DNA of 64,000 nucleotides from Candidatus Zixiibacteriota bacterium (GTDB taxonomy: Bacteria; Zixibacteria; MSB-5A5; JAABVY01; JAHJOQ01): contig JAHJOQ010000073.1 in the NCBI GenBank assembly GCA_018820315.1, positions 13,343 to 77,342 of the forward strand, in the 5' to 3' direction. The position numbers were made by a program, and so were the translations under genes. How positions within the stretch are numbered: the stretch's first letter is position 1; each line of letters opens with the position of its first letter. Below the pieces are notes generated by a model. The model made no database searches. It had not been told where the DNA came from and saw only the letters and a program-made list of their open reading frames with translations. Positions 37,939 through 43,706 of the stretch are shown in pieces.

Positions 37939-38520
37939 GTGGCCAAAACATTGATCAAACCAGACGGGTTCATGGTTCCACTGCCTGCGACCCTGCTCTC
38001 CTGTCAGAAGCCGGGGGAGACACCTAACATCATCACGTTGTCATGGGTCGGTGTGCTTTGCAGCGAACCACCGCTGATCGGAGTCGGTATCAGGCCCGGC
38101 AGATATTCTTACGGCATTGTGAAGGAGACCGGTGAGTTTGTTATCAATGTGCCAAATGAAGATCAGGTGGCTGCGTCAGATTATTGCGGGCATGTTTCCG
38201 GCCGCAAGAAGGATAAATTCGCGGAGTGTTCGTTAACAGCGGAAAAGGGTAGTGTCGTTTCGGCGCCGATCATCAAGGAATGCCCCATTAATATCGAGTG
38301 CAGAGTGACTCAGTCGATTGTGCTCGGATCGCATGAGCTTTTTATCGGCGAGATAGTCGCAATACAGGTAGATGAGAATTGTCTCAACGACAAAGGTCAT
38401 GTCGATATCGGCAAAGTGAAACCATTTGTGTATATCCCCGGTTCGAGTGAGTATGTCGGTGGATTTGACAACCTTCTCGGCAGGAGTGGGTTTGCAGCAA
38501 AGAAGCGAACGATGCAATAG
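37939..38520 (+). CDS. Flavin reductase-like (FMN-binding split-barrel) domain protein
   Basis: The sequence pattern (PNIITLSWVGVLCSEPPLIGVGIRPGRYSYGIVKETGEFVINVP...GEIV) is consistent with the flavin reductase like domain. GTG start. Confidence 0.6.
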   Translation: MAKTLIKPDGFMVPLPATLLSCQKPGETPNIITLSWVGVLCSEPPLIGVGIRPGRYSYGIVKETGEFVINVPNEDQVAASDYCGHVSGRKKDKFAECSLTAEKGSVVSAPIIKECPINIECRVTQSIVLGSHELFIGEIVAIQVDENCLNDKGHVDIGKVKPFVYIPGSSEYVGGFDNLLGRSGFAAKKRTMQ

Positions 38521-38563
38521 TGCATCGTTGTTGCGATATTAGATCGCAATTAGTGGAAACAAA

Positions 38564-39829
38564 GTGAGGCGAAAAGTGAGTGGAGCGAAAAGTTGGCACA
38601 GACTACTTGAATATCGAGATTGGATATTCGGAGTGATAGCGGCCGCAGCGGCAGTAATTGGCGTATGGAGTTACTTGCAGCAGCCGGAATTGAGATGGCG
38701 ACACATTGAAACCACTGAACATATGACAGAATCGGGAGATCGCGGACAATATACACTGTTAATCGCCAACAAGGGGTTACGTGATGCCTTTAATGTAACG
38801 TTCGTGGCGAGTCTGGAATATGGTCAGTTAGACTCAGCCAATTTCAATCTCGGACTTTCTGATACCCAGTCAGTGGTACTAGGGCAAACTGACATTGAGA
38901 TCGGACTCTCGCGAATACCCAAAGGAAGCGCATCAGAGATCTACGTTTTCGCCAGTTCGCAGGATAGTCTGCCGAGAGAATTGGAAGTTATCAAGCTAAT
39001 AGGTGATGAAGTGCAGGGCGAAGAGTGGGCTCCAGTAACCAGAGTGTGGAAAGCGGTCTATTCAGGAGTTGTTCTTCTTCTACTACTACTGTGTATCATC
39101 AACATTCGCCGATTGCGATTCCCGAAAGTGCGGTCAGGCGGCTATGAATCAAGTATGACGGATATTGTAACGCAAGACGCTTTGGATGAAATCAAGACAA
39201 TAGGGGCATTTGAATTAAAGGCTGATACAGAGGATAGCAGTTATGAATGGAAGACTGAGCATTTAGCTGGCCTTGAGTGGCTCCAGAATAGAATTAAGAA
39301 TGCCAAGAAGCAGATTTCGATTGTATCGTACTCTTTTGTGTCACTTGAGACCCAGCTTGAGCAAGCTCTCGAGGAATATCTTCAGAAAGACAGTACTTGT
39401 CGTTTGCGCATTCTCCTTCTGCAACCGCATTCTCCTAGTTTCGTACAGAAGACACTACTGGAGTCATTCGATCGCCAGGCAGAGTTATTTACGCCGAGTC
39501 AATGGAACAAAGCCGCTATGGAATTGCGAAAGTTGCATGCCCATGATCTAACCCAGACGTTCTCGATTGTTAAGAGATGGTCCAATAAGTACGGTGCCGA
39601 AAGGGTAAAGTGCAGAACGTACTTTGATACGCCGTTATTTGCAGGTTTCCTCTTTGATGATGATGCATTTTGTCTTTCGTCTTACTTCCTCGATCCGGTG
39701 ATGCGTGGGTTCCACAGTCGACGACTTTGCGTGGAAAGCTGCGGCAATTCCGATGATCTGCAAGTTCTGCGGAAGATCTTTCAGAACTGGTTCACTGTTA
39801 AGTTTGCGATGGGGGGCGAAGCCGGTTGA
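38564..39829 (+). CDS. Hypothetical two-TM membrane protein; C-terminal cytoplasmic domain with phospholipase-D-like sequence pattern lacking the catalytic His/Lys (HxK replaced by FxG)
   Basis: TM1 WIFGVIAAAAAVIGVW. An approximately 130 aa beta-rich extracytoplasmic segment. TM2 VVLLLLLLCIINI. The cytoplasmic region ISIVSYSFVSLETQLEQALEEYLQKDSTCRLRILLL ... RVKCRTYFDTPLFAGFLFDDDAFCLSSYFLD parallels the PLD pattern (i.i.spYf...aL..a..rGV.Vrill ... lHaKvmivDd.wa.iGSaNfD) with H replaced by F and K by G. Confidence 0.4.
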   Translation: MRRKVSGAKSWHRLLEYRDWIFGVIAAAAAVIGVWSYLQQPELRWRHIETTEHMTESGDRGQYTLLIANKGLRDAFNVTFVASLEYGQLDSANFNLGLSDTQSVVLGQTDIEIGLSRIPKGSASEIYVFASSQDSLPRELEVIKLIGDEVQGEEWAPVTRVWKAVYSGVVLLLLLLCIINIRRLRFPKVRSGGYESSMTDIVTQDALDEIKTIGAFELKADTEDSSYEWKTEHLAGLEWLQNRIKNAKKQISIVSYSFVSLETQLEQALEEYLQKDSTCRLRILLLQPHSPSFVQKTLLESFDRQAELFTPSQWNKAAMELRKLHAHDLTQTFSIVKRWSNKYGAERVKCRTYFDTPLFAGFLFDDDAFCLSSYFLDPVMRGFHSRRLCVESCGNSDDLQVLRKIFQNWFTVKFAMGGEAG

Positions 39830-39867: not shown

Positions 39868-40551
39868 ATGTACGCCATAGCCAGATCTTACAATGCGCCT
39901 CGCTTGCGAGGCTTAATCAAGAGACTTGACAGTAGTGATCGGTTTACGGCGATTGTTGTTGTAGTCGATAGCGATCGGGACTCAACTGGGACTGCAGACA
40001 GTGTTTCAGCTATGCGGACACGCACATCCATACGAACAGTCCTTCTGGAGAACTATGGATGGTCCAGAGCCTTGAATGCCGGTATTGATGCCTTGCCACG
40101 TCAGCAGCACGAGAATGAGCTTGTCATGATGATATCTAATGAGGTCGCAATCACGATACCTCAAATCGATGCGCTTGCTGAGAAGGCATCCTCGAAAGAT
40201 GCTTCCTGTAGTTACGTACACTTTAAAGGGCGGTCAGAACCGACTTATTTTGTTCCCAGAAACACGTGCGCAGTGTGGAGGAGAGGTGTTTTTGAAAGAG
40301 TGGGACTTTTTGACGAAAGGTTTGATCACAAGACTGGCATGGAGGACTACGAGCTGGTTTTGCGATCGTATAGAGATGCATCACTGCTTCCTTTTCTGGC
40401 CGCGAGAGGCGTTCCTCTTCGGCTTCCGGAGACTCTTAATCTTGCTGAGAAGCTAGATTGGGAAAGCCGCGGGTTGCTCTGGATCAACTCGCTGTATAGC
40501 GAGCATGTTGTATCAGCGATCGAGGCGCACCTTGCTTCGCAGTTTATATAG
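39868..40551 (+). CDS. Glycosyltransferase family 2-like protein (degenerate: DxD motif not evident)
   Basis: AAGGAGAA RBS 8 nt upstream of ATG. TAIVVVVDSDRDSTGT parallels the GT2 DDGSTD segment. ENYGWSRALNAGIDA parallels the NxG..ARN.Gi segment. ERVGLFDERFDHKTGMEDYELVLR parallels GGFDE...gEDyDl..R. The expected DAD/DxD position reads MMISNEV. Confidence 0.45.
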   Translation: MYAIARSYNAPRLRGLIKRLDSSDRFTAIVVVVDSDRDSTGTADSVSAMRTRTSIRTVLLENYGWSRALNAGIDALPRQQHENELVMMISNEVAITIPQIDALAEKASSKDASCSYVHFKGRSEPTYFVPRNTCAVWRRGVFERVGLFDERFDHKTGMEDYELVLRSYRDASLLPFLAARGVPLRLPETLNLAEKLDWESRGLLWINSLYSEHVVSAIEAHLASQFI

Positions 40552-40632: not shown

Positions 40633-41949
40633 ATGAACTTCTTCGCAAGCACAGTCACTACCCTCGCATCAAAAGTACTCACAATATTATTCGGCACACT
40701 CACCGGAGTGCTTACGGCGCGAGCGCTCGGACCATCGGGGCGCGGTACTCTGTCTGTTATCCTCTCGACAGTTTTGATCGGCGTCATATTCGGTGAGTTT
40801 GGCTTGATCGAGGCCAACGCATACATGGCGGCGGGAGACCGACGCAAATCGGCCAAGTTGACTGTCAACAGCCTCTGGAGCTCTATGGGATTTGGAACAT
40901 TGACCGGCTGCGTGATCGTAGCGCTCTATTTGATTTCGCCGGACATTTTCGAAGCAATTCCATTGAGTCTTATGATTGTCGGACTGATATCTGTTCCGTT
41001 CGTGATGCTGGGATTGATGCTGCAGCGCATATATCTGGGGCAGAATCGAATTGTGCAGTTCAACGCCTATGATCTCATTAGTAAGCTGCTGGTATTGATA
41101 CTGACTTTTGTCGGACTCTATCTTCTGCATGTGACACTTTCAACCTATCTAATGATTTACGCGGCCATATTTTGTTTTTCGGGAGTGATATTCTTTCTGG
41201 GGCAGAGAGTGAGCCTCTCAACGATTATGAGACCCGATCTCGGTGTGCTCAAAGAATCGCTTCGATATGGATTCCGTGCGTACATAGCGGTGTCACTGCC
41301 GTTTGTTCTCTCTCGACTTGGACTTTACTTCGTGAACGCACAACTCGGAGCGACCGAAGCGGGGCAATACTCCGTTGCGATGCAGGCCAATGATTTGTTT
41401 CTGATCGTACCTGGCGTCATCGGCACTCTGCTTTTCTCCAGAGTGGCAGCCGACCAGAAGACTCATACACTGACTCTTAAGAGCTTCAGATTCATGCTGA
41501 TGGTTATGCTGCCCATTTTCATACTGGGGCAAATCTTCACACGAGAGCTGGTGCTGTTGCTTTTTGGTGCTGACTTTTTGCCCGCAGTGCTTCTTATGCG
41601 AATCCTGTTCATCGGCGGATTCGCAACTGGTCTCGGGGTCATATTCTTGAATGATCTGGCAGGCAGAGGTTATCCTCTGTTCATAGTCCTGATGTGGCTT
41701 CCATTGTGCGCGATAAACGTAATCCTGAACCTGGTACTGATGAATCTGTGGGGCACCGCCGGCGCAGCAGCATCGCTGGCGGTTACGTATGTATTGGGAT
41801 TCATAGCTGCGGTGCTCTATTTCAGATATTACGTCAAGGTCAGAGGTTGGAGCGGTTTCCTGCCGAGGCCGGGTGATTTCACTGACCTGATTCAATCCTG
41901 TAAGACCGCTGTGGCTGGCCTGACCGGCAGAGGTGAGACTAGACAGTGA
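40633..41949 (+). CDS. MOP-superfamily oligosaccharide/polysaccharide flippase (Wzx-like) integral membrane protein
   Basis: 438 aa with about 12-14 predicted TM helices distributed as in Wzx/RfbX 'polysaccharide biosynthesis protein' family members. The sequence is hydrophobic throughout. Confidence 0.55.
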   Translation: MNFFASTVTTLASKVLTILFGTLTGVLTARALGPSGRGTLSVILSTVLIGVIFGEFGLIEANAYMAAGDRRKSAKLTVNSLWSSMGFGTLTGCVIVALYLISPDIFEAIPLSLMIVGLISVPFVMLGLMLQRIYLGQNRIVQFNAYDLISKLLVLILTFVGLYLLHVTLSTYLMIYAAIFCFSGVIFFLGQRVSLSTIMRPDLGVLKESLRYGFRAYIAVSLPFVLSRLGLYFVNAQLGATEAGQYSVAMQANDLFLIVPGVIGTLLFSRVAADQKTHTLTLKSFRFMLMVMLPIFILGQIFTRELVLLLFGADFLPAVLLMRILFIGGFATGLGVIFLNDLAGRGYPLFIVLMWLPLCAINVILNLVLMNLWGTAGAAASLAVTYVLGFIAAVLYFRYYVKVRGWSGFLPRPGDFTDLIQSCKTAVAGLTGRGETRQ

Positions 41950-42062
41950 TGAGTAAGACACGATTTAGGATATAAGAGGCAGGTTTCGGGCAAACTTACA
42001 CAGCCAGTCGCCTGCACAGCCACCGACCGCGTTTATTATTTGCCTGTTTTACGAAAATGTGA

Positions 42063-42091
42063 TTGCCTTGGATCACCTTTGTATATATTAT
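42063..42091 (+). promoter_or_regulatory. Candidate sigma-70-like promoter (TTGCCT-17-TATTAT) for the methyltransferase gene
   Basis: TTGCCT at 42063-42068, a 17 nt spacer, then TATTAT at 42086-42091, about 25 nt upstream of ATG 42118. Confidence 0.35.
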
Positions 42092-42117
42092 CGATTCGAG
42101 AACATCCACAGGAGAAG

Positions 42118-42972
42118 ATGGTGATCCAAAGAAATCTGTTGCCGGTTAATAAGATAATCTGCGGGAATTGCGAAGAAGTCTTGAAGGGATTCCCTGAGGA
42201 CTCGGTGGATCTTATCGTTACATCTCCACCGTACGCCGATAGCAGGAACAGTACATATGGCGGCATACATCCTGATGAGTATGTGGACTGGTTTTTGCCC
42301 AAGGCAGTTGAATTCCATCGTGTTCTAAAACCTACGGGAACATTCATATTGAACATCAAGGAGAAGGCCGTCCGTGGAGAGCGCCACACTTATGTATTAC
42401 AGTTGATACTCCGGCTCCGCGAAGAGGGTTGGCTTTGGACGGAGGAATTCGTGTGGTACAAGAAGAACTGCTATCCAGGCAAATGGCCGAACAGATTTAG
42501 GGATGCATGGGAACGATGCCTTCAATTCAATAAGCAGAAGAAATTCGCCATGTATCAAGATGAGGTTATGGTGCCGATGGGAGAATGGGCCAAATCGCGG
42601 CTCAAGAACCTCAGCGAAACCGACAAAATCCGGGATGAGTCAAGGGTCGGTAGCGGTTTTGGCAAGAATATTTCCAATTGGCTCCGGAGAGATAAGGCTT
42701 ATCCATCAAATGTCTTGCATTTGGCCACCGAATGTTCTAACAAGAATCACAGCGCGGCATTTCCCTTGTCGCTGCCAGAGTGGTTCATTAAGCTCTTCAC
42801 CAAGAGAGGCGACCTCGTGCTTGATCCCTTTAATGGATCGGGGACTTCTGCCATTGCCGCCAGGAAGCTGGGGCGGAAGTATATCGGCGTGGATTCGAAC
42901 CTCGAGTACTGCTTAATGGCCGAGAGGCTTCTGAAGAGCGAAGACAGGCAGGTAGTCATATGGAACAACTGA
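42118..42972 (+). CDS. DNA methyltransferase, beta-class (N4-cytosine or N6-adenine; SPPY motif IV precedes motif I)
   Basis: NKIICGNCEEVLKGFPEDSVDLIVTSPPY carries motif IV SPPY. The C-terminal LDPFNGSGTSAIAA carries the motif I FxGxG AdoMet site. The order IV then I is typical of the N6_N4_Mtase beta class (e.g. PvuII/RsrI-type). The ORF-track start at 42040 was moved to ATG 42118 (AGGAG RBS). Confidence 0.8.
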   Translation: MVIQRNLLPVNKIICGNCEEVLKGFPEDSVDLIVTSPPYADSRNSTYGGIHPDEYVDWFLPKAVEFHRVLKPTGTFILNIKEKAVRGERHTYVLQLILRLREEGWLWTEEFVWYKKNCYPGKWPNRFRDAWERCLQFNKQKKFAMYQDEVMVPMGEWAKSRLKNLSETDKIRDESRVGSGFGKNISNWLRRDKAYPSNVLHLATECSNKNHSAAFPLSLPEWFIKLFTKRGDLVLDPFNGSGTSAIAARKLGRKYIGVDSNLEYCLMAERLLKSEDRQVVIWNN

Positions 42973-43706
42973 GTTTGAAGGATGTAGAGAAATTTGTTAG
43001 CACGGAAATCGTCACCTTTCACAAGAACAAACTTGAGATTTTGAAGCGGAAAAAACTTCAGAAGCTTCTAAGAGATAAGAATCCGTATCTCTTCAAGGCC
43101 AAGAACATTCTCATCGCCTCGGACTTGGTTACCAACATAATGGATGCTTACCTGTATGCTTCTGAGGAGAAACTCTTCGGTGATTTTCTGGAGGAACTGG
43201 CGATTTTTGTTGCCGGAAAGACATACGGGGGAAGAAAGTCATCGGCAACTGGCATTGACCTAGAGTTTGAGAAGTGTGGTAGACATTATCTGGTTTCAGT
43301 GAAATCTGGACCCAATTGGGGAAACAGCTCTCAACAGAAGAAGCAACAGACTGACTTTCAGAAGGCAGTCGGAGTACTCAAGCAGTCCCGATCTGAAGCT
43401 ATGGTCGAACCAGTTCTGGGAATCTGCTATGGCAAGTCTAAGACGAAGCATCTAAGAGGTTACACAAAGGTCATGGGACAGCTCTTCTGGAATCTTCTTG
43501 GCGGCAATCCAAATCTGTATACTGACATAATTGAACCGTTAGGTCATGATGCGAAGAAGCACAATGAAGAATTCTTGAAACAAAAGGCAGTCATAATCAA
43601 CACATTTACAGCGGAATTCCTGAAGGAATTCTGCGGCAGTGGCCAAATATGCTGGGATAAGCTTGTCAAATTCAATAGTGGAAACATGACGGACGATGCT
43701 TCCTAA
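42960..43706 (+). CDS. Hypothetical protein; candidate cognate Type II restriction endonuclease (by context only)
   Basis: Overlaps the MTase stop by 13 nt, suggesting co-transcription and translational coupling. No database-recognisable motif. The segment TGIDLEFEKCGRHYLVSVKSG could form a divergent PD-(D/E)xK core. AT-richer than the flanks by eye. Confidence 0.35.
   Translation: MEQLSLKDVEKFVSTEIVTFHKNKLEILKRKKLQKLLRDKNPYLFKAKNILIASDLVTNIMDAYLYASEEKLFGDFLEELAIFVAGKTYGGRKSSATGIDLEFEKCGRHYLVSVKSGPNWGNSSQQKKQQTDFQKAVGVLKQSRSEAMVEPVLGICYGKSKTKHLRGYTKVMGQLFWNLLGGNPNLYTDIIEPLGHDAKKHNEEFLKQKAVIINTFTAEFLKEFCGSGQICWDKLVKFNSGNMTDDAS

What the first reader, a model, noticed from the sequence alone, without database searches (positions are those of the whole stretch)
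38564..39829. PLD-fold look-alike with HxK replaced by FxG
The cytoplasmic domain mirrors the PLD/Nuc 'pYf...RGV.VRill ... lHaKvmivDd...iGS.N.D' pattern with conserved spacing, but it has Phe and Gly where the catalytic His and Lys should be (LFAGFLFDDDAFCLSSYFLD). This suggests a non-catalytic PLD-like phosphate or nucleic-acid binding module tethered to the membrane, with an extracytoplasmic beta-rich sensor-like loop between two TM helices. Inactivated PLD domains are uncommon and may act as sensors or scaffolds.
Basis: inference. Interest (0 to 1): 0.5.

Follow-up and report, generated by a model that had tools for sequence, protein, structure and literature searches.

The report
Dead PLD-fold domain paired with glycosyltransferase
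This membrane protein ends in a phospholipase-D-shaped domain that has lost its catalytic His and Lys, and it belongs to a rare, unannotated two-gene module with a small glycosyltransferase whose relatives swap in TIR, cyclase, kinase, DNA-binding or membrane front ends, so it is probably a regulatory or sensor domain in a new signalling or defence module.

Summary
The ORF is real (38564/38576..39829, +). Its topology is N-in, TM1, a 122-aa outside loop, TM2, then a cytoplasmic C-terminal domain.

- **HKD motif:** The catalytic His and Lys are missing in all 27 family members, while the motif's Asp and Ser are kept.
- **Variable front ends:** The 26 homologs share only this domain. Their N-termini carry TIR-type, cyclase, kinase, wHTH, HTH or 1-2 TM modules.
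- **Co-inheritance:** A and B distances co-vary (r=0.70, Mantel p≈0.001).
- **Prior knowledge:** Both genes are annotated as hypothetical proteins (Zixibacteria MAG). PADLOC, phage and plasmid collections and the literature gave no match.

Best reading: a non-catalytic PLD-fold receiver that couples the glycosyltransferase partner to interchangeable outputs. The fold and the linkage are shown. The mechanism is inferred.

The parts
38576..39829 (+). Gene A: membrane protein with a C-terminal HKD-less PLD-fold domain. The mechanical ORF starts at 38564 (421 aa). The likely start is the GTG at 38576 (417 aa). Residue numbers in this report count from 38564.
   Evidence: ORF list. GAGG lies 6 nt before GTG 38576. 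The 417-aa form is identical to NCBI MBU1318878.1, a 'hypothetical protein' from a candidate division Zixibacteria MAG.
38621..38677 (+). TM helix 1 (residues 20-38)
   Evidence: Kyte-Doolittle 19-residue window peaks at 1.95. The N-terminal 19 residues carry 6 K/R.
38678..39043 (+). Predicted extracytoplasmic loop (residues 39-160, 122 aa). It is an orphan sequence of unknown fold.
   Evidence: It lies between the two TM segments and is net acidic, 10 K/R against 19 D/E. No Pfam hit at E<=10. No homolog covers it in either protein search. Other TM-type family members have only short loops.
39044..39106 (+). TM helix 2 (residues 161-181), followed by the basic stretch RRLRFPKVR
   Evidence: Hydropathy peak of 2.40. 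There are 5 K/R in residues 180-199.
39245..39820 (+). Cytoplasmic PLD-fold domain without HKD catalytic residues (residues 228-419). This is the constant domain of the family.
39626..39688 (+). Degenerate HKD motif region (residues 355-375, DTPLFAGFLFDDDAFCLSSYF). The family consensus is [DE]-T-P-x-hydrophobic-x-G-(hydrophobic x3)-D-x6-S-S-Y-F.
   Evidence: Column counts: no His and one Lys in columns 355-365 over 27 sequences; D365 in 25/27, S372 in 23/27, S373 in 22/27, P357 in 27/27. The register against Nuc comes from hhalign of the C-terminal halves (weak).
39868..40551 (+). Gene B: a 227-aa soluble GT-A (GT2-like) protein, the conserved partner of gene A

Best explanation
Gene A ends in a catalytically disabled PLD-fold domain. 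It retains the fold and the structural Asp and Ser of the HKD motif but has no catalytic His or Lys. This domain is the constant 'receiver' of a rare two-gene module whose second gene (B) is a small GT-A/GT2-type glycosyltransferase-like protein.

I propose that the PLD-like domain no longer cleaves phosphodiesters. Instead it binds something connected with B: most likely a sugar, sugar-phosphate or nucleotide-sugar-type small molecule that B makes or consumes, or B itself. Occupancy of the old active-site face, probably across a PLD-style homodimer, would then switch the N-terminal module on or off.

That N-terminal module is interchangeable across the family: TIR-type NADase-like domains, class III cyclase, Ser/Thr kinase, OmpR-type wHTH, XRE HTH, or 1-2 TM helices. 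In the window protein the output is the 2-TM segment with a 122-aa outside loop. This makes it a membrane-embedded variant, either a membrane-acting effector or a transmembrane relay.

Shown: the fold, the loss of His and Lys, family-wide conservation, N-terminal modularity, the tight A-B linkage and B's fold.

Inferred: ligand sensing, dimerisation, the direction of information flow, and whether the biological role is defence or signalling.
For: **Fold**
- The AF2 model has pLDDT 92.2.
- Foldseek's top 50 hits are all PLD superfamily.
- hhalign against a Nuc profile gives 85% probability, E 6e-6.

**Loss of catalysis with selection retained**
- There is no His and only one Lys in columns 355-365 of 27 sequences.
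- D365, S372 and S373 are kept.
- Thirteen further positions are invariant or nearly so across phyla at about 30% identity: Y256, L284, K296, E300, H325, Y353, P357, P378, G382, W409, F410, G417 and R381.
- These conserved residues sit mainly in the loops after beta1 and beta2, before beta4 and after beta5. That is the edge of the sheet that carries the PLD active site (secondary-structure map combined; this placement is an inference).

**Constant core, variable output**
- Homologs share only this domain.
- Their N-termini are Guanylate_cyc x3, Trans_reg_C x2, TIR/TIR_2 x2, CAP12-PCTIR_TIR, ThsB_TIR, DUF4062, Pkinase and HTH_31, plus 1-2 TM helices in about 10 members.
- The two closest A/B pairs, L009 and L010, carry different N-termini (CAP12-TIR versus kinase).

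**Partnership with B**
- B is adjacent in 12 of 13 distinct loci, in three geometries: 10 A->B, 1 B->A and 1 convergent.
- A and B pairwise distances correlate, r=0.70 with Mantel p~0.0009. Without the closest pair, r=0.49 and p~0.017.
- A B copy without A carries a TAG at an invariant Tyr.

**Precedents for non-catalytic PLD folds as binders**
- TrmB combines an N-terminal HTH with a C-terminal PLD-like sugar sensor.
- FAM83 DUF1669 is a pseudo-PLD domain.
- Both are among the best structural matches. Their functions are cited from established knowledge and were not tested here.
Against:
- The conserved His/Lys/Glu/Arg set (H325, K296, E300, R381) would fit a relocated catalytic site as well as a binding site.
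- One divergent member (P0019, locus L024) has no B within 4.6 kb upstream or 0.95 kb downstream.
- Cyclase, kinase and TIR domains can generate signals as well as act as outputs, so information could flow the other way.
- The family is small, with 27 clusters at 50% identity, and is known only from metagenomes and MAGs.
- Defence-island context is anecdotal: R-M genes near the module in the window, and MTase/ParB_N/PRTase-CE in L006.
- There are no hits in PADLOC.
Confidence: 0.5

Rival explanations
1. The domain is still an enzyme: a PLD-fold phosphotransferase or hydrolase that has rebuilt its active site from other residues (K296, E300, H325, Y374, R381). It would act on a phosphodiester-containing product or substrate of B, such as a lipid-linked or nucleotide-linked sugar.
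For: - One His (25/27), one Lys (25/27), one Glu (26/27) and one Arg (22/27) are near-invariant outside the old motif.
- A GT-A partner that handles NDP-sugars supplies plausible phosphodiester chemistry.
Against: - The nucleophilic His and the Lys on the beta4 strand are absent in every member.
- H325 lies in a long helical insert (H84-116 of the model) that has no counterpart in Nuc.
- Fusing one enzyme to TIR, kinase, cyclase, HTH or TM partners is more typical of a regulatory domain than of a metabolic enzyme.
- The best structural matches include the non-catalytic TrmB, TrmBL2 and FAM83.
Confidence: 0.2
2. The PLD-like domain is a protein-protein adaptor, in the manner of FAM83 DUF1669 binding CK1. 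It would dock the GT-A protein B onto different N-terminal modules, or it would itself be the acceptor that B glycosylates. No small-molecule sensing would be involved.
For: - A-B adjacency is tight and the two genes co-vary.
- B is a small single-domain protein with no targeting domain of its own.
Against: - No interaction test was possible.
- The many conserved polar residues at the former active-site edge are more than a docking surface usually needs.
- Adaptor function and ligand sensing are not mutually exclusive.
Confidence: 0.15
3. In this genome the gene is simply an accessory of envelope polysaccharide synthesis. It would be a 2-TM protein with an outside loop and a cytoplasmic domain, with a topology like polysaccharide co-polymerases, working with the GT (B) and the Wzx-like flippase encoded immediately downstream.
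For: - The gene order in the window is A, then B (GT2-like), then a Polysacc_synt_3/Wzx-like gene at 40633-41949.
- The TM-loop-TM-cytoplasmic-domain topology is supported.
- Epimerase or aminotransferase genes lie near some other loci.
Against: - The flippase is not conserved next to A-B in any other locus.
- Most relatives are soluble proteins with TIR, cyclase, kinase or HTH N-termini, which has no rationale in polysaccharide assembly.
- The outside loop is unique to this protein.
Confidence: 0.1
4. It is a decaying relic of a PLD enzyme with no function.
For: The catalytic residues are lost. The family is rare.
Against: - The same substitutions and about 13 invariant or nearly invariant positions persist across Zixibacteria, Acidobacteriota and Alphaproteobacteria MAGs at about 30% identity.
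- The ORF is intact.
- Synteny with B is conserved and the two genes co-vary.
Confidence: 0.02

Closest known systems
TrmB / TrmBL2 (archaeal sugar-sensing transcription regulators; PDB 2f5t, 3qph, 5bpd)
   Same: - They have a PLD-like fold without HKD catalysis that is used as a binding or regulatory domain.
- The domain order of N-terminal DNA-binding domain followed by C-terminal PLD-like domain is mirrored by family members P0006 and P0007 (Trans_reg_C) and P0012 (HTH_31).
   Different: - There is no detectable sequence similarity. Pfam Regulator_TrmB was never hit.
- The family lacks TrmB's additional C-terminal beta-barrel subdomain. The model ends with a helix and has only the PLD-like sheet.
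- It has a long helical insert (model residues 64-116) that carries conserved K296, E300 and H325.
- It is linked to a GT-A gene, and the window protein is membrane-anchored.
Nuc / NucT / Zucchini (single-HKD PLD nucleases; Pfam PLDc_2)
   Same: - The N-terminal beta-alpha-beta unit, including the 'YSF' strand, aligns profile-to-profile at 85% probability.
- The motif Asp and the Gly/Ser-Ser positions are retained with the same 6-residue spacing.
- There is a single domain per chain, so any PLD-type site would need a dimer.
   Different: - The catalytic His, Lys and Asn of HxK(x)4D(x)6GSxN are replaced by N/L, Y/R and F respectively.
- PLDc_2 scores are below the gathering threshold, 13.5-14.8 bits against 27.
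- A roughly 50-residue helical insert lies between beta2 and beta3.
FAM83 DUF1669 (eukaryotic pseudo-PLD scaffold domain)
   Different: It is eukaryotic. No sequence-level match was found: PF07894 hits the Nuc homologs but not this family. Its partners and context are different.
Pfam DUF5919 (uncharacterised bacterial domain, often found after an HTH)
   Same: Two family members give weak hits (E 2e-3, 18.3 bits) over the beta1 'YSF' region. It may be a sister family.
   Different: The hits are below threshold (cut-off 23.5 bits) and the window protein gives no hit. No literature on DUF5919 is held in the searchable library. The relationship is untested beyond this.
Sensor-effector fusions of nucleotide-signalling defence systems (TIR-SAVED, TIR-STING and 2TM-SAVED in CBASS; PycTIR and PycTM in Pycsar)
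   Same: The logic is similar: one constant C-terminal receiver domain is fused to alternative TIR or TM N-terminal effectors, and the gene sits next to the enzyme that would supply the cue. One member carries the CAP12/Pycsar-type TIR (PF10137, E 2e-30).
   Different: - The receiver here is a PLD fold, not SAVED, STING or a cNMP-binding domain.
- The adjacent enzyme is a GT-A glycosyltransferase-like protein, not a CD-NTase or pyrimidine cyclase.
- The family also includes kinase, cyclase and HTH fusions.
- PADLOC gave no hit.
- No anti-phage activity is known.

Membership tests
PLD superfamily (fold level) | Alpha/beta PLD fold: a mixed sheet flanked by helices, superposable on Nuc or PLD domains | tested here: met
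   [not shown]
PLD superfamily (catalytic HKD enzymes; Pfam PLDc/PLDc_2) | HxK(x)4D(x)6G(G/S)xN motif with the catalytic His and Lys | tested here: not met
   There is no His and one Lys in columns 355-365 of 27 sequences. The Asp (25/27) and Ser-Ser (23/27 and 22/27) are kept, and the Asn position is Phe or Tyr. The register comes and is weak, but no register supplies a His or Lys.
PLD superfamily (catalytic HKD enzymes; Pfam PLDc/PLDc_2) | Score above the Pfam gathering threshold for PLDc_2 (27 bits) | tested here: not met
   The window protein scores 13.5 and 14.8 bits. Six of 27 members give sub-threshold hits, the best at E 2.4e-5.
PLD superfamily (catalytic HKD enzymes) | Two HKD halves forming one site, either as two domains in one chain or as a homodimer | not testable with these tools
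   There is only one domain per chain.
TrmB-type sugar-sensing regulators | PLD-like subdomain plus a C-terminal beta-barrel subdomain that together form the sugar site, with an N-terminal TrmB-type wHTH | tested here: not met
   [not shown]
Pfam DUF5919 | Score above the gathering threshold (23.5 bits) | tested here: not met
   The window protein gives no hit. P0015 scores 18.3 bits at E 2e-3.
Known anti-phage defence systems (PADLOC-DB v2) | Match of A or B to any defence-system protein model | tested here: not met
   A gives no hit at E<=1. B gives only a stray DrmC hit at E 0.032.
GT-A / GT2 glycosyltransferases (for partner B) | GT-A Rossmann-like fold | tested here: met
   [not shown]
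GT-A / GT2 glycosyltransferases (for partner B) | DxD metal/NDP-binding motif and a catalytic-base acidic residue | tested here: inconclusive
   The DxD position reads S-N-[E/D]: S in 14/14, N in 12/14, E/D in 12/14. The 'GMEDY' region (E159, D160) is invariant. The positions were assigned from the secondary-structure map and GT2 motif knowledge, not from a superposition. Pfam GT2 models score below threshold.

The most novel reading that the evidence does not exclude
A and B form a previously unrecognised two-gene signalling or immune module. In it, a GT-A enzyme generates or depletes a sugar- or nucleotide-sugar-derived cue. A catalytically dead PLD-fold domain reads that cue, and this domain has been recruited as a new class of receiver that drives interchangeable outputs: TIR-type NADases, membrane-spanning effectors, cyclases, kinases and transcription factors. 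This would be a glycosyl-based analogue of the CBASS, Pycsar and Thoeris sensor-effector logic.
Probability: 0.25. Interest if true: 0.85.

Novelty: new variant of a known kind. Interest (0 to 1): 0.62.

Why it matters
Non-catalytic PLD folds are known (TrmB, FAM83, MITD1), so a dead PLD domain is not new in itself. What is new is a distinct, unannotated bacterial family in which this domain is the fixed core of a modular protein and is genetically coupled to a divergent GT-A enzyme.

The range of N-terminal partners is the signature of a receiver domain in signalling and abortive-infection systems. It includes several TIR types, among them the Pycsar/CAP12 type, as well as TM hairpins, cyclase, kinase and HTH.

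If the module is confirmed, it would add a new receiver fold and possibly a new, glycosyl-based cue to prokaryotic signalling or immunity. It would also give a function to two 'hypothetical protein' families and possibly to the neighbouring DUF5919.

The hypothesis is directly testable. The TIR-fused versions provide an easy NADase read-out.

Tried and rejected
1. **Word-indexed protein search with the full protein.** It found only a self-hit. With the family profile it found only 3 proteins. The exhaustive HMMER search was needed to find the family.
2. **Sequence and profile searches against PDB sequences.** These gave only spurious helical matches such as ATP synthase subunit b and nothing for B.
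3. **PADLOC, PHROGs and NCBIfam scans.** There was no meaningful hit for A. A NucT hit at E 0.18 and a holin hit at E 0.087 on TM1 were disregarded.
4. **Register of the HKD motif.**
   - Local hhalign stops before the motif because of the helical insert.
   - Global mode gave nonsense.
   - Aligning the C-terminal halves alone gave a weak (E 0.1) but motif-consistent register.
The B case was solved by registering the B proteins through a cluster look-up. The complex itself remains untested.
6. **Genome, metagenome and viral scans.**
   - The A alignment and the 7-sequence B alignment A4 were too divergent for pattern scans.
   - The single protein A found nothing in genomes.
   - The B alignment found 4 genome loci and 6 metagenome loci and none in viral contigs.
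   - There were no tblastn hits in the phage or plasmid collections.
7. **Literature searches.** Searches for DUF5919, for PLD-like/TIR/glycosyltransferase combinations and for TrmB-like sensors found no description of this module. The lipocone paper was checked and is unrelated.
8. **Island boundaries.** There are no tRNA genes and no convincing flanking direct repeats. Only a GC dip was seen.
9. **Rejected idea: the outside loop is the family's sensor.** The loop is unique to this protein.
Full report
**1. What is at the coordinates**

The window holds an ORF at 38564..39829 (+), 421 aa with a GTG start. A GAGG box precedes a second GTG at 38576. The 417-aa product from that start is identical to NCBI MBU1318878.1, a 'hypothetical protein' from a candidate division Zixibacteria MAG.

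Hydropathy gives two TM segments, at residues 20-38 and 161-181. There are six K/R before TM1 and five just after TM2. The 122-aa loop between them is acidic, with 10 K/R against 19 D/E. The positive-inside rule therefore puts the loop outside and the C-terminal half in the cytoplasm.

The loop has no homolog and no Pfam match, even at E<=10. Its 'beta-rich' character could not be verified.

**2. Is the C-terminal domain PLD-like?**

At the single-sequence level there are only hints: PLDc_2 at E 0.066 and 0.025, covering the first third of the profile, and NucT at E 0.18.

The word-indexed search found only the protein itself. The exhaustive HMMER search over 1.8 billion cluster representatives found 26 relatives, with E from 1e-36 to 5e-13. 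All of them match only residues ~228-419.

With this family in hand:
- Six of 27 members give sub-threshold PLDc_2 hits, the best at 2.4e-5, and two give weak DUF5919 hits.
- I built a genuine PLD profile from Nuc of plasmid R46 and its homologs. hhalign of the family profile against it gives 84.9% probability, E 6.4e-6, over the N-terminal beta-alpha-beta unit. Both families share the 'YSF' strand.
- AlphaFold2 with the 27-sequence alignment gives a confident model, pLDDT 92.2 and pTM 0.88.
- All 50 best Foldseek PDB hits are PLD-superfamily structures, including FAM83B DUF1669, PssA, NucT, TrmBL2, F13, Zucchini and PLD2.

The fold assignment is therefore solid, with the caveat that it rests on a predicted structure.

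**3. The HKD motif**

Across the 27 sequences, the eleven columns around the would-be HxK strand (355-365) contain no His and a single Lys. The loss of the catalytic pair is thus a family trait and not an alignment artefact.

Three motif positions are retained: D365 (25/27), S372 (23/27) and S373 (22/27). Their spacing is exactly that of the PLD D(x)6G-S.

A separate hhalign of the C-terminal halves is weak on its own (E 0.1). It places Nuc H116/K118/D123/G130-S131/N133 opposite L358/A360/D365/S372-S373/F375.
- His is replaced by N/L/I.
- Lys is replaced by Y/R/N.
- The motif Asn is replaced by F/Y.

Only one PLD-like domain occurs per protein, so any PLD-type site would need a dimer.

Outside the old motif the family keeps a striking set of near-invariant residues: Y256, L284, K296, E300, H325, Y353, P357, P378, R381, G382, W409, F410 and G417. 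K296, E300 and H325 lie in a helical insert of about 50 residues between beta2 and beta3 that Nuc lacks. I could not check whether they converge on the old pocket, because model coordinates are not exposed.

**4. The family is modular**

The relatives share only the PLD-like domain. Their N-termini are:
- class III cyclase (3 members);
- OmpR-type wHTH (2 members);
- TIR/TIR_2 (2 members);
- CAP12/Pycsar-type TIR, ThsB-like TIR and DUF4062 (one each);
- Ser/Thr kinase (1 member);
- XRE HTH (1 member);
- one or two TM helices (about ten members);
- unassigned sequence or nothing in the rest.

The window protein is the only member with a long loop between its two TM helices.

**5. A conserved partner gene**

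The ORF after gene A has an AAGGAG RBS before its ATG at 39868 and encodes 227 aa. It is identical to NCBI MBU1318879.1, a 'hypothetical protein'. It is 44% identical (E 3e-68) to the gene that follows the TIR-fused homolog P0004.

I scanned all retrieved loci with HMMs for A and B. B is adjacent to A in 12 of 13 distinct loci with enough flanking DNA:
- ten are A->B on the same strand, with spacing from a 4-nt overlap to about 100 nt;
- one is B->A (L022);
- one is convergent with a 7-nt gap (L025).

The exception is the divergent cyclase member P0019 (L024).

Further support for co-inheritance:
- The linkage survives changes in gene order.
- A and B pairwise distances correlate, r=0.70 with Mantel p~0.0009. 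Without the closest pair, r=0.49 and p~0.017.
- The two most closely related A/B pairs, L009 and L010, carry different N-termini (CAP12-TIR versus kinase). This shows domain swapping on a constant A-domain-plus-B chassis.

B-like genes without A also exist:
- a divergent copy next to SecDF (L021);
- a copy next to serS that has a TAG at the codon of an invariant Tyr (L019/L020).

**6. What B is**

B gives only sub-threshold GT2 hits: Glyco_tranf_2_2 in 6 of 6 members, best at 1e-4, plus EpsD and a phage galactosyltransferase PHROG.

The GT2 'ED' region (GMEDY) is invariant. The DxD position reads S-N-[E/D]. B may therefore be an unusual but active transferase, or it may only bind an NDP-sugar.

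**7. Context and distribution**

In the window the module lies between housekeeping genes: dnaB, mlaE, mlaF, radA and a flavin reductase upstream, and tgt, def, fmt and RNase G downstream. It sits in a stretch of lower GC, 0.47-0.49 against 0.51-0.53. A Wzx-like flippase gene and a type II R-M pair (N4/N6 MTase plus an EcoO109I-type REase) follow it. No tRNA or flanking repeats mark an insertion.

The flippase is not conserved next to A-B elsewhere. Other loci show occasional defence-type neighbours: D12 MTase, ParB_N and PRTase-CE in L006, and a NUDIX gene in L015. No third gene is conserved.

Members come from MAGs or metagenomes of Zixibacteria, Blastocatellia and an alphaproteobacterial bin. 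One B copy lies at a contig edge in a Methanosarcinales MAG. Nothing was found in the phage, plasmid or viral-contig collections, in PADLOC or in the literature searched.

**8. Interpretation**

*Shown:* a PLD fold without the catalytic His and Lys; strong purifying selection on other residues; interchangeable N-terminal modules; an almost obligatory GT-A partner.

*Inferred:* the PLD-like domain acts as a receiver. A constant C-terminal domain is fused to alternative TIR, TM, cyclase, kinase or HTH modules and sits beside one particular enzyme. This is the architecture of sensor-output proteins such as cNMP-binding, SAVED, STING and CARF fusions.

The best structural relatives include proven non-catalytic PLD folds. 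TrmB is itself an N-terminal HTH plus a C-terminal PLD-like sugar sensor. FAM83 is a pseudo-PLD scaffold.

I therefore favour a model (confidence about 0.5) in which the domain binds a sugar- or nucleotide-sugar-type molecule linked to B's activity, or binds B itself. Binding would probably occur at the former active-site face of a homodimer, and would control the N-terminal module. In the window protein that module is the 2-TM-plus-loop segment, acting as a membrane effector or a transmembrane relay.

The rival explanations are:
- a re-wired but still catalytic PLD using K296, E300 and H325 (0.2);
- a pure adaptor for B, or a substrate of B (0.15);
- for this genome only, an envelope-polysaccharide accessory working with B and the flippase (0.1);
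- a dead relic (0.02, contradicted by the conservation).

**9. Verdict**

The register is off by one residue.

Its interpretation needs inverting. The PLD-like domain, not the outside loop, is the conserved, probably sensing, core, and it works with the neighbouring GT-A gene.

This is a new family within a known superfamily and an undescribed two-gene module. Its function remains an inference.

Noticed in passing
window 42040-42972 and 42960-43706 (+): This is a complete type II restriction-modification pair: an N4/N6 DNA methyltransferase (PF01555, E 1e-42; PADLOC MTase_II 2e-49) overlapping an EcoO109I-family restriction endonuclease (PF14511, E 6e-71). It lies two genes downstream of the A-B module, inside a lower-GC stretch at 38-44 kb, between radA/flavin reductase and tgt.
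   Followed up: partly
window 40633-41949 (+): A Wzx-like polysaccharide flippase gene (Polysacc_synt_3, E 1e-10) sits directly after gene B. It is not found next to A-B in any other locus, so it is probably not part of the module. It could still cooperate with the membrane-anchored A in this genome.
   Followed up: partly
L019 351-1076 and L020 2-637: Two metagenome contigs carry the same B homolog with an in-frame TAG at the codon of the invariant Tyr127 (GRDEEP*RYPRNT). The upstream gene is a serS 3' end, and no A gene is present, including in the ~880 nt downstream in L020. This may be a decaying B where A has been lost, or a sequencing or recoding oddity.
   Followed up: partly
L021 4986-5774: A more divergent 262-aa B-like GT-A gene with a ~10-residue insertion stands alone next to SecD/SecF-like genes, with no A gene within 5 kb. 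The gene on the opposite strand just downstream looks NUDIX-like by eye. In L015 a NUDIX gene (PF00293, E 7e-7) also follows B.
   Followed up: partly
L009 275-1447 versus L010 6001-7485: These are the two most similar module copies, with A-domain distance 0.32 and B distance 0.19. Their N-terminal domains differ (CAP12/Pycsar-type TIR versus Ser/Thr kinase), which is a clear case of recent domain swapping.
   Followed up: yes
L013 5426-5986: In a Blastocatellia MAG the A gene is reduced to the bare PLD-like domain, starting at the beta1 strand. About 800 nt upstream contain no long ORF. A 507-aa gene downstream has an NPPW-type methyltransferase motif by eye but no Pfam hit.
   Followed up: no
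L006 231-2871: A D12-class adenine methyltransferase, a ParB_N-domain protein and a PRTase-CE protein lie directly upstream of the cyclase-fused A gene. This is a defence-island-like neighbourhood.
   Followed up: no
L025 2737-6011 (-): Next to the convergently oriented B gene are two genes with no Pfam hit, of 366 aa and 723 aa. The 366-aa gene has a Walker-A-like GAGKTHLL motif.
   Followed up: no
window 38508-38529: A perfect 9-bp inverted repeat (AACGATGCA-CTAT-TGCATCGTT) spans the flavin-reductase stop codon, just upstream of gene A. The scan flagged it as terminator-like on the minus strand. It may separate gene A from the upstream operon.
   Followed up: no
window 41293-41961 (-): A 222-aa ORF lies antisense to the flippase gene. 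It is Ser/Gln/His-rich and is probably a spurious shadow ORF.
   Followed up: no
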